Origin: a virus
Taxonomy: Duplodnaviria > Caudoviricetes
IMG/VR virus record: IMGVR_UViG_3300022562_000053
Coordinates: 1 to 37,560 of that record
Direction: 5' to 3' (one strand)
Length of the DNA stretch: 37,560 bases
The position numbers were made by a program, and so were the translations under genes. Every line of letters starts with the position of its first letter. The stretch's first letter is position 1. A model generated the notes under the pieces. The model was not told the origin of the DNA. It did not search any database and was given only the letters and a program-made list of their open reading frames with translations. This document shows, one piece after another, positions 30,229-36,132 of the stretch.

Positions 30229-30257
30229 TTGACAAATCGGTTGAGATTTGGTATAAT
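30229..30257 (+). promoter_or_regulatory. Sigma70-type promoter, divergent from the virion operon promoter
   Basis: TTGACA-17 nt-TATAAT with extended TG. Confidence 0.85.
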
Positions 30258-31069: not shown

Positions 31070-31114
31070 ATTATCTGTCCTGTACGGGCTTCTGAGAGGA
31101 TTTTAGGATATTCC

Positions 31115-31178
31115 GAATTTTTTCTCTAGGATTTCCTAAATTTTTTCTCTAGGATTTCCTAAATTTTTTCTCTAGGAT
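31115..31178. repeat. 23-bp tandem repeat, about 2.8 copies
   Basis: AAATTTTTTCTCTAGGATTTCCT at 31115 (1 mismatch), 31138 and 31161 (partial). Confidence 0.95.
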
Positions 31179-31239
31179 ATGACCGGGTCTGTCTCACGCA
31201 TGACACGCGCAGGGTTCCACTCCCCCCCCTCCCCGGATG

Positions 31240-34325: not shown

Positions 34326-34419
34326 ACTCCCGTAGCTTAATGGTAGAGCACCCGGCTTATACCCGGCATTGGCGACAGATTATCGCAAGATGAGGGTTCG
34401 ACTCCCTCCGGGAGTACCA
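34326..34419 (+). tRNA. tRNA with UAU anticodon (Ile, AUA) and long variable arm
   Basis: Acceptor ACTCCCG/CGGGAGT + A-CCA; D arm GCTT/GAGC; anticodon loop CT-TAT-AC; 24-nt variable arm; T arm GAGGG-TTCGACT-CCCTC. Confidence 0.9.
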
Positions 34420-34438: not shown

Positions 34439-34978
34439 ATGGAGGTAACTCTAAAAAAGGCTGCCACCCTAGCCTTGGCCCTGAATTCGATCAAGACGGT
34501 GATTCCTCACTCGTTTACGGTCGATATCTACGGACCACCGCTGACGACAGAAATCGCCGACGACTGTCATCTCAGGTTCTTGGACGGCCTCGATTCCGCC
34601 GTCGAGAAGATTACGGCTGTAAGCCAGATCAGGGATTTGATCGGCGTCGCCAACGAAGGCGAAATCAACCGACTGATTGCCAAGAAGGCAGGGATCGAGA
34701 AGCTCCTTGCCGTCTTCGGAGAAATCCCTGAGCGGAAGCTGAAACCGGATATAGCCACCATCAATACCAAAGCGGCAGGGTACAAGGAGGCGAAGGGTTA
34801 CTCAACCCCTATCCTGTCTCTTGAAGTCGAGACATTCTCTGCCTGCAACCACTCCGTTAAGGCGCTTCGTAAGGAGCGCATCAAGGTGGACGACAGGCTC
34901 GCCTACCTCAACTTTACCACCAAAATCGAGATTCCTGAAGACGTGGTTTCAGTACTCCAGAAGTACGACCTAGTCTGA
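34439..34978 (+). CDS. Helical hypothetical protein (possibly DIP1984-like)
   Basis: AGGAG SD; helical, with C-terminal LRKERIKVDDRLAYLNFTTKIEI. Confidence 0.8.
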   Translation: MEVTLKKAATLALALNSIKTVIPHSFTVDIYGPPLTTEIADDCHLRFLDGLDSAVEKITAVSQIRDLIGVANEGEINRLIAKKAGIEKLLAVFGEIPERKLKPDIATINTKAAGYKEAKGYSTPILSLEVETFSACNHSVKALRKERIKVDDRLAYLNFTTKIEIPEDVVSVLQKYDLV

Positions 34979-34983
34979 AGGAC

Positions 34984-35160
34984 GACGAGAGAAGTCAACC
35001 CTCCTCGGGAAGAGGACCTGGGTCTCGACCCTATTGGCAAGCCCTTCGGGGCAACAGCTTTGTTTGCACGACACCAAGACTGCTGATTGGTCGTTTATGG
35101 CTGATATGTTGCTTGTCTTTTGTGGTGTGTTAGTTGCCTTTTGTTGTGACTTCTCTCGTC
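34984..35160 (+). ncRNA. Putative structured RNA with heptamer repeats
   Basis: Perfect 14-bp closing stem GACGAGAGAAGTCA/TGACTTCTCTCGTC, internal hairpins including GCCC-TTCG-GGGC, six consecutive 7-mers ending in TG. Confidence 0.65.
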
Positions 35161-35183
35161 ACTTAATTTCAAAGGAGAATGAC

Positions 35184-35519
35184 ATGACTGCTGACGTAAT
35201 CACTCTGGCACCTGCCAAGACTCCGAAGACAAAGATCGACAACACCCTTCTCGTCAAGGCTTTCCACGACGAAGGAGGACGAATCTTCCATATCCGTCCC
35301 CACGACGGATACACCCAACCCGATAGGGGCATGACGGTGGCCTACAAGAAGAAGTCGGGACGCATCGAGATGGCTACCTCGGTGACTCACCGTAACGACA
35401 CCTTCGAGAAGAAGATCGGTACGAAGACGGCTATCGAGCACTTCCGGGCCGGTCAGACCGTCAATCTTCCCGTCACCGACGTCGAGTCTCTGATTCGTAT
35501 GCTCTCGGTAATCTGCTGA
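35184..35519 (+). CDS. Hypothetical protein
   Basis: AAGGAG SD before ATG at 35184; contains DTFEKKIG. Confidence 0.75.
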   Translation: MTADVITLAPAKTPKTKIDNTLLVKAFHDEGGRIFHIRPHDGYTQPDRGMTVAYKKKSGRIEMATSVTHRNDTFEKKIGTKTAIEHFRAGQTVNLPVTDVESLIRMLSVIC

Positions 35520-35772: not shown

Positions 35773-36132
35773 ATGGCCAATCACAAGATTTACGTCTATG
35801 GGACGCTTCGGCCCGACAAGGCCGAGGCAGATCAGCTCGAAAAGGTGACAGGCACGATGTACGACCTCGGTGCCTTCCCCGGCTTAGTCATCGAGGGACA
35901 GTCCGTCCAAAGGGTTGTCTCCTGTGAGGTGATCGAAGCCGACGACGACGAGTTGGCGGGACTGGACAGGTACGAGGGGTATAACCCCGACGATCCCGAG
36001 GGTTCCCTCTACCTCCGTAAGGCCTTTCGTGATGGTTGGATTTACGTCTACAACCAACCCTACGAGGGACGTCCCGTCGTCGAATGCGGTGACTGGGTTC
36101 TCTACAAGGAGCTGAAACCTCAGCTTGCCTGA
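35773..36132 (+). CDS. Gamma-glutamylcyclotransferase (AIG2-like) family protein
   Basis: YVYGTLR, MYDLGAFPGL, LDRYEGY, LYLRK, WIYVYN. Confidence 0.9.
   Translation: MANHKIYVYGTLRPDKAEADQLEKVTGTMYDLGAFPGLVIEGQSVQRVVSCEVIEADDDELAGLDRYEGYNPDDPEGSLYLRKAFRDGWIYVYNQPYEGRPVVECGDWVLYKELKPQLA

What the first reader, a model, noticed from the sequence alone, without database searches (positions are those of the whole stretch)
34439..35160. Helical protein gene paired with a closed structured RNA carrying 7-nt periodic G/U-rich repeats
Seen: five nt after the stop of a 179-aa helical ORF, a 177-nt segment is closed by a perfect 14-bp stem (34984-34997/35147-35160). Its 5' half has small hairpins (CCTC/GAGG, GGGTC/GACCC, a UUCG-capped GCCC/GGGC). 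Its 3' half is a strict 7-nt register TGATATG-TTGCTTG-TCTTTTG-TGGTGTG-TTAGTTG-CCTTTTG (35102-35143), with looser units upstream. A period of 7 cannot come from codon structure. Inference: a protein-RNA module in which an oligomeric protein binds one repeat per subunit, analogous to TRAP or to repeat-based type III antitoxin RNAs, acting as an autoregulatory switch, RNP or anti-defence decoy. The protein's C-terminus recalls the uncharacterised DIP1984 family, which I could not verify.
Basis: partly seen in the sequence, partly recalled or inferred. Interest (0 to 1): 0.8.

Follow-up and report, generated by a model that had tools for sequence, protein, structure and literature searches.

The report
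Eight-repeat phage RNA with partner protein
A small phage gene of unknown function sits beside a stem-closed non-coding element with eight evenly spaced three-letter repeats, an arrangement kept across very distant phages, so the protein likely assembles on the repeats of this RNA to form an undescribed RNA-protein particle.

Summary
The 179-aa ORF belongs to an unnamed viral family (107 hits) with a fold loosely like DIP1984/DUF6847. In 40 homologous loci under 70% identity, a (T)TG-N4 array lies beside the gene. The best period is 7 in 38 and 8 in 2. The array is downstream of the gene in about half of the loci and upstream in the rest. It sits inside a 180-250-nt element with a closing stem and an inner stem that covary (28 of 35 pairs change on both sides). 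The usual layout is 2+6 units, and the window has these eight. No Rfam family matches, and seven paper searches list nothing on it. The protein is predicted to form a homodimer whose conserved basic ends lie mostly outside the interface. Best reading: four dimers likely bind the eight units and stabilise a scaffold RNA, possibly a decoy in tRNA-centred phage-host conflict. Binding, expression of the RNA and function are untested.

The parts
34326..34419 (+). tRNA-Ile(UAU) gene with an unusually long variable arm, directly upstream and likely co-transcribed
   Evidence: ARAGORN; Rfam tRNA 60.6 bits
34427..34441 (+). ribosome-binding site and start codon; the same 15 nt recur at 35172-35186 before the next gene
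   Evidence: repeat family D8
34439..34978 (+). 179-aa helical protein of an unnamed viral family, DIP1984-like fold, predicted homodimer; conserved K6, K7, R65, N72, R144, K145, R147, N158
34984..35160 (+). 177-nt non-coding element (predicted RNA), member of an uncatalogued family
34984..34997 (+). closing stem P1, 5' arm
   Evidence: I3; equivalent helix covaries in homologues
34998..35051 (+). variable 5' domain of three small hairpins, the last UUCG-capped; many homologues have a UUGAAA-type loop in this domain
   Evidence: poorly aligned, 57% paired
35055..35103 (+). inner stem by homology: 35055-35059 with 35099-35103 and 35069-35072 with 35090-35093, enclosing units 1-2
   Evidence: alignment with 4 close relatives, coordinates; equivalent helices 85-87% paired; not the minimum-energy fold of the naked window RNA
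35080..35093 (+). repeat units 1-2 (TG at 35081, 35088)
35106..35147 (+). repeat units 3-8 (TG at 35107, 35114, 35121, 35128, 35135, 35142)
35147..35160 (+). closing stem P1, 3' arm; overlaps a weak terminator-like hairpin at 35146-35162
35184..35519 (+). next ORF (111 aa, no Pfam or PHROG match); a similar gene follows the RNA in close relatives L004 and L005 but not in distant ones, so probably not part of the module
   Evidence: likeness seen by eye, not scored

Best explanation
This is a conserved gene-plus-non-coding-element module of phages, in which the small helical protein, predicted to be a homodimer, likely binds one (U)UG repeat per subunit so that four dimers would cover the eight repeats of a stem-closed scaffold RNA, which likely serves as a protected decoy or adaptor against host RNA-targeting enzymes. 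Shown: the linkage of gene and element, the fixed spacing with free spacer letters, the covarying closing and inner stems, the usual count of eight units, and a spacing of 7 in most lineages and 8 in two. Predicted: the antiparallel dimer (interface within residues 22-139), which leaves the conserved basic residues 6-7 and 144-147 outside the interface. Inferred: transcription with the upstream tRNA and trimming to the closing stem; binding by the basic ends; spacer length set by the geometry of the protein assembly. My odds: about 0.75 that protein and RNA form a particle on the repeats, and about 0.3 that its job is a decoy in tRNA-centred conflict.
For: Linkage: of 40 loci under 70% protein identity, 19 have a period-7 TG chain within 350 nt downstream (shuffle p <= 0.015), 20 have it within 350 nt upstream (scores 5-12, not shuffle-tested; the empty side scores 2-4), and 1 has it about 600 nt downstream. 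Period: 7 in 38 of 40, 8 in 2. TTG-to-TTG distance 7 occurs 135 times beside the genes and 0 times inside them. Three more phages related to L107 also have period 8. Letters: only TG and the base before it are kept (T in 85 of 107 inner units); the spacers vary freely, as expected for a protein footprint. Structure: 87.3% of cells paired against 67.1% shuffled and 34-47% slid; 28 of 35 pairs change on both sides in 23 sequences; one G-U pair is kept in 22 of 23. Optional hairpins are inserted between units without breaking the 2+6 count. Held-out profiles find the window element: E = 1.6e-6 from 4 close relatives and E = 0.0014 from 33 elements. Protein: self-association score 0.60 against a best control of 0.00, runs agreeing in at least 86% of contacts, pLDDT at least 84; the mark was reached by 20 of 30 solved homodimers and 1 of 23 single chains, and the calibration used two copies, not four. 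Conserved basic positions. A tRNA lies within 500 nt in 22 of 42 loci (no background measured). One homologue is annotated as detected by mass spectrometry, so the family is expressed.
Against: No binding, RNA expression or phenotype data. The naked window RNA prefers a fold (-67.5 kcal/mol) that pairs part of the array over the homology-based fold (-58.4). A profile from the 23 distant elements alone did not find the window element, so its tie to that clade rests on the protein, the architecture and close relatives. The automatic unit count gave exactly 8 in only 16 of 34 elements (range 5-14; it also counts chance TG chains). The predicted confident interface covers one dimer; no octamer was modelled. 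I drew the structure from rows of the alignment, and the shuffle control ignores relatedness. Vibrio phage PG07 shows only a weak array. 20 of 42 loci have no tRNA within 500 nt (some flanks are short), and the window element has no tRNA-like arm.
Confidence: 0.6

Rival explanations
1. Cis-acting autoregulatory switch, TRAP-like: the protein binds the repeats in its own transcript and so controls termination, stability or translation of its own or the next gene.
For: In upstream-type loci the element mostly ends 26-60 nt before the start codon. In the window, a weak terminator-like hairpin (35146-35162) competes with the closing stem and the next ribosome-binding site lies 12 nt beyond it. The naked RNA has a competing fold.
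Against: The element is downstream in 22 and upstream in 20 of 42 loci, once 448 nt away. Downstream neighbours differ (a tRNA in some, unrelated ORFs in others). The long closing stem covaries. A regulator with no evident other function would have little to regulate.
Confidence: 0.17
2. RNA-antitoxin pair: the helical protein is toxic or forms filaments when free, and the repeat RNA holds it inactive until the RNA decays.
For: Very tight gene-RNA linkage in either order; spacing and letters change with the protein lineage.
Against: No nuclease or toxin family match in Pfam, PHROGs or NCBIfam, and no toxin among the top full-length fold matches. The units are 7 nt, not the roughly 36-nt pseudoknot repeats of type III antitoxins (recalled).
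Confidence: 0.13
3. The RNA is an RNA-only structure, or a DNA-level site, in which the UUG units make tertiary or intermolecular contacts, and the protein is only a neighbour.
For: GOLLD RNA, an RNA of phage tRNA clusters, lies in one of the loci. Binding is untested.
Against: The array stays beside the gene in 40 of 40 loci although the order flips. The period shifts to 8 with divergent protein lineages. Conserved G-U pairs favour RNA over DNA.
Confidence: 0.08
4. Chance periodicity in a U/G-rich intergenic stretch.
For: The region was chosen after the fact and is low in complexity.
Confidence: 0.02

Closest known systems
DIP1984 / DUF6847 proteins (Pfam PF20935, PDB 3KDQ)
   Same: 3KDQ is the top Foldseek match in the PDB (E 0.12, probability 0.90, TM 0.39-0.47) and the only near full-length match at the top of the wide search (Z 8.7, rmsd 7.5, 138 aligned). 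Atlas models match at TM 0.57-0.63. One canonical DUF6847 gene (L118) also has a stem-closed downstream element with a period-7 array.
   Different: No sequence match above cut-off. About 30 residues longer. The repeat letters are TTG here and CAC at L118, whose element also has a tRNA-like arm (seen by eye). No RNA partner is described in the three papers listed for these names (listing only).
TRAP and the trp leader (recalled)
   Same: An oligomer reads short triplets at fixed spacing with free spacer letters, one per subunit.
   Different: TRAP is a beta-rich 11-mer ring on (G/U)AG repeats of period 5 and a cis attenuator (recalled). Here the protein is helical, the period is 7 or 8, there are about eight units in two blocks inside a closed RNA, and the element lies on either side of the gene.
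Ro60 (Rsr) with Y RNAs of bacteria and phages (recalled)
   Same: A protein gene with an adjacent non-coding RNA closed by a terminal stem, often near tRNA genes.
   Different: No TROVE/vWA domain (179-aa helical protein), no Rfam Y RNA match, and a periodic array that Y RNAs lack.
Type III toxin-antitoxin systems ToxIN, CptIN, TenpIN (recalled)
   Same: A protein gene linked to a repeat-bearing RNA.
   Different: The repeats are 7-8 nt, not pseudoknotted units of about 36 nt; no ribonuclease toxin match.

Membership tests
DUF6847 / DIP1984 | score above the PF20935 cut-off (27 bits) or a match to the NCBIfam DIP1984 model | tested here: not met
   No match for the window protein; 2 of 99 family members match weakly, best E 0.0024
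DUF6847 / DIP1984 | profile-level homology to a canonical member | tested here: not met
   hhalign of A1 against the single L118 protein: probability 2.7%; only one sequence on the other side
DUF6847 / DIP1984 | same fold as 3KDQ | tested here: inconclusive
   Top match in two searches, but Z 8.7 is tied with unrelated helical hairpins and is under the level that the tool trusts for helical proteins; Atlas TM 0.57-0.63
DUF6847 / DIP1984 | adjacent period-7 repeat element (proposed by earlier scan notes, not a published feature) | tested here: inconclusive
   Seen at L118 (the 1 match in 301 genomes) and at the weak match in phage ME3; chain score 4 at period 7 against 2-3 at other periods, no shuffle
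TRAP attenuator | TrpBP/TRAP domain | tested here: not met
   No Pfam match; the model is mostly helical
TRAP attenuator | (G/U)AG repeats of period 5 in a leader before the regulated genes (recalled) | tested here: not met
   Units are (T)TG at period 7 or 8; the position flips
Type III toxin-antitoxin | ToxN/CptN/TenpN ribonuclease | tested here: not met
   No match in Pfam or NCBIfam; PADLOC not searched
Type III toxin-antitoxin | toxicity of the protein neutralised by the RNA | not testable with these tools
   needs expression
Ro60-Y RNA | TROVE protein and a Y RNA family match | tested here: not met
Any Rfam 15 family | match over the element | tested here: not met
   None in the window at E <= 5; none over the repeat arrays or closing stems in 12 loci at gathering score, apart from a tRNA match just before the array of ME3

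The most novel reading that the evidence does not exclude
A widespread, undescribed class of RNA-templated protein assembly: the RNA sets the subunit number (eight) through a ruler of triplets whose spacing (7 or 8 nt) and letters co-evolve with the DIP1984-like protein, while a free 5' domain displays interchangeable hairpins or tRNA-like decoys. It would run from small tailed phages to jumbo phages and bacteria, perhaps to giant viruses, and be a modular counter-defence particle.
Probability: 0.35. Interest if true: 0.9.

Novelty: categorically new. Interest (0 to 1): 0.8.

Why it matters
If the protein binds as inferred, this gives a function to an unnamed viral protein family and possibly to the DIP1984/DUF6847 fold, solved in 2009 without a function. 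It would add a new phage non-coding RNA class and a new way to read RNA: a helical dimer recognising triplets at a spacing of 7 or 8. The natural 7-nt and 8-nt versions give a direct swap test. Cultured carriers exist (Caulobacter phages CcrColossus and CcrPW, Brevundimonas phages, Rak2-like jumbo phages), so function can be tested at once. A modular RNA scaffold with a defined protein count could also be useful as a tool.

Tried and rejected
Word-based protein search found only the protein itself. tblastn of the window protein in phage records and a pattern scan of viral contigs found nothing. blastn of the element gave only short chance matches. Pentatricopeptide hits in the PDB sequence search and 4 such or other long multi-stretch hits (P0058, P0086, P0098, P0102) are repeat-score artefacts: the profile search lost them. 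They and 4 partial or extended hits (P0070, P0072, P0087, P0093) were left out of alignment A1. The single-sequence fold was poor (pLDDT 46) and served only as a lead to CcrColossus. One member (P0056) had no relative in the genome collection. A profile from 23 distant elements missed the window element. No RNA holder was listed for the stretch. A virion location was considered: the mass-spectrometry sample of fENko-Kae01 was washed, concentrated lysate with 220 proteins identified (PMC11218385, passages; the one held supplement did not contain the gene name), and the CBB homologue's tag does not occur in the main text of PMC5259590 (passages), so it is not shown. The closing-helix search always returns a best helix and has no null; 8 of its 42 picks were dropped before alignment A6 (L011, L015, L034, L045, L047, L068 for doubtful ends; L107, L108 for period 8). 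In the tree L050 was grouped as upstream by mistake; well-supported branches force only 1-2 order changes, so repeated switching is not shown. The two period-8 lineages sit on long branches and their relation is unresolved. No covariance model was built, PADLOC was not searched, and the giant-virus loci were not examined.

Full report
Setting. The window is a 37,560-base virus record, about 78% complete, with a P22-like portal, a family A DNA polymerase and a class II ribonucleotide reductase. The finding lies among small unassigned genes on the + strand, between two consensus sigma-70 promoters at 30229 and 36173. The order is tRNA-Ile(UAU) 34326-34419, the 179-aa ORF 34439-34978, the element 34984-35160, and a 111-aa ORF from 35184.

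Observation. All described features are present. The element folds better than 200 of 200 shuffles (z -3.41), and the array is the strongest period-7 signal in the window. Neither part has a library match: Rfam, Pfam, PHROGs and NCBIfam.

Protein family. An exhaustive search gave 107 hits, most of them full length at 24-43% identity; 98 were aligned with the query (A1). The model from A1 has pLDDT 96. Structural matches among viral proteins include Caulobacter phage CcrColossus (TM 0.83), Erwinia phage pEa_SNUABM_47, Vibrio phage Vp_R1 and, more weakly, Yasminevirus and Catovirus proteins. In the PDB the best match is 3KDQ (DIP1984), at a level that suggests distant kinship but does not prove it; sequence tests fail. 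Conserved basic positions are 6, 7, 65, 144, 145 and 147; R65 and N158 are invariant. A four-copy prediction supports self-binding (0.60 against 0.00 for the best of 3 controls; 20 of 30 solved homodimers and 1 of 23 single chains reach this mark; contacts agree at 86% or more; pLDDT 84 or more; calibrated on two copies). The confident interface is a symmetric dimer within residues 22-139, which includes R65 and excludes the two basic ends. A likeness to the solved 3KDQ assembly could have helped the score.

Linked RNA. Loci came from viral contigs (with the best 80 of 169 kept, 85, 86), metagenomes and named phages. Among 40 loci under 70% protein identity, the period-7 TG chain lay downstream in 19 (p <= 0.015 by dinucleotide shuffle), upstream in 20 (not shuffle-tested; 5-12 against 2-4 on the empty side) and about 600 nt downstream in 1. 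An unbiased test of periods 5-11 on a slightly different set of 40 (both flanks required) gave 7 in 38 and 8 in 2; TTG pairs 7 apart numbered 135 beside the genes and 0 inside them. Period 8 recurs in three phages related to L107 and is weak in PG07. The sample leans towards one large IMG/VR clade.

Architecture. Alignments of 34 and 23 elements show a closing stem, a variable 5' domain often with a UUGAAA-type loop, and an inner stem whose loop ends in two units. Six more units follow, either in a row or split 4+2 or 3+3 by an inserted hairpin. Seven TG pairs of columns are invariant in the 23. The structure I drew is 87.3% paired (67.1% shuffled, 34-47% slid), with changes on both sides in 28 of 35 pairs; the closing helices are 93-96% paired, the inner helices 85-87% and the small 5' hairpin only 57%. 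The window element is a compact member with the 2+6 layout. Profiles built without it find it when close relatives are included (E 1.6e-6 and 0.0014), but not from the distant 23 alone. Its naked minimum-energy fold pairs part of the array and is 9 kcal/mol below the homology-based fold; protein binding would have to pay for that, or the window copy is a switch.

Wider picture. A canonical bacterial DUF6847 gene (L118; 1 match in 301 genomes) is followed by a stem-closed element with period-7 CAC units and a tRNA-like arm, and a weak DUF6847 match in Acinetobacter phage ME3 is followed by a tRNA-like sequence and period-7 GTT units. These two are single cases without a shuffle test. They agree with two earlier notes of this scan on other DNA (e1-10221415, e1-8725921), which are unchecked and are not counted as support. 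A tRNA lies within 500 nt in 22 of 42 loci.

Mechanism. Invariant short letters at fixed spacing, free spacers, tolerance of inserted hairpins and a spacing that shifts with the protein lineage are what a repeating protein footprint would leave. Eight units and a predicted dimer suggest four dimers. An element that stays beside the gene but on either side behaves more like a second gene than like a leader. I therefore favour a free RNA-protein particle (about 0.75). Its purpose is the weak step. The tRNA neighbourhood, the T-loop-like hairpins and the tRNA-like arms of sister classes suggest a decoy or adaptor in tRNA-centred conflict (about 0.3); I took this wording from note e1-10221415. A cis switch and an RNA antitoxin remain open.

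Literature. Seven full-text searches listed no paper on this RNA or on an RNA partner for DIP1984/DUF6847; I saw listings and abstract starts only, plus passages of PMC11218385 and PMC5259590. The library lacks most subscription journals. Large computational surveys of phage structured RNAs may hold this motif in supplements that I did not see. TRAP, Ro60-Y RNA and type III antitoxin features are recalled.

Verdict. A real, conserved and uncatalogued gene-RNA module; categorically new as far as these searches reach, noted before by this scan in sister forms; binding and function untested. Interest 0.8.

Noticed in passing
window 34326-34419: tRNA-Ile with a genomic UAU anticodon and a 20-nt insertion in the variable arm; a look-alike by eye lies upstream of the gene in L062. 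It could read AUA without the host's lysidine pathway or escape an anticodon nuclease (inference).
   Followed up: partly
L107, L108, L110-L112 (Erwinia, Vibrio, Pectobacterium, Klebsiella phages): The same kind of element has an 8-nt period; the L107 group has a 4-5 residue insertion after the conserved AN motif, which L108 lacks.
   Followed up: partly
L015, L020, L034, L050, first 250 nt after the gene: A second conserved, apparently structured non-coding stretch is shared by these loci, before tRNA genes; no Rfam match at gathering score in L020.
   Followed up: partly
L079:3652-4120: GOLLD RNA and several tRNAs within 1.5 kb of the module.
   Followed up: no
many loci, for example L008, L067, L079, L101, L107: A separate hairpin precedes the closing stem, and a promoter-like sequence lies just before or after the element in several loci (seen by eye).
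   Followed up: no
fold matches: Yasminevirus and Catovirus (giant viruses) encode structural matches at E about 1e-4; their flanks were not examined.
   Followed up: no
window 31101-31184: A/T-rich direct repeat of about 25-nt units, possibly an origin or terminal-repeat region.
   Followed up: no
window 35773-36132: Gamma-glutamyl cyclotransferase-like gene in the same gene run.
   Followed up: no
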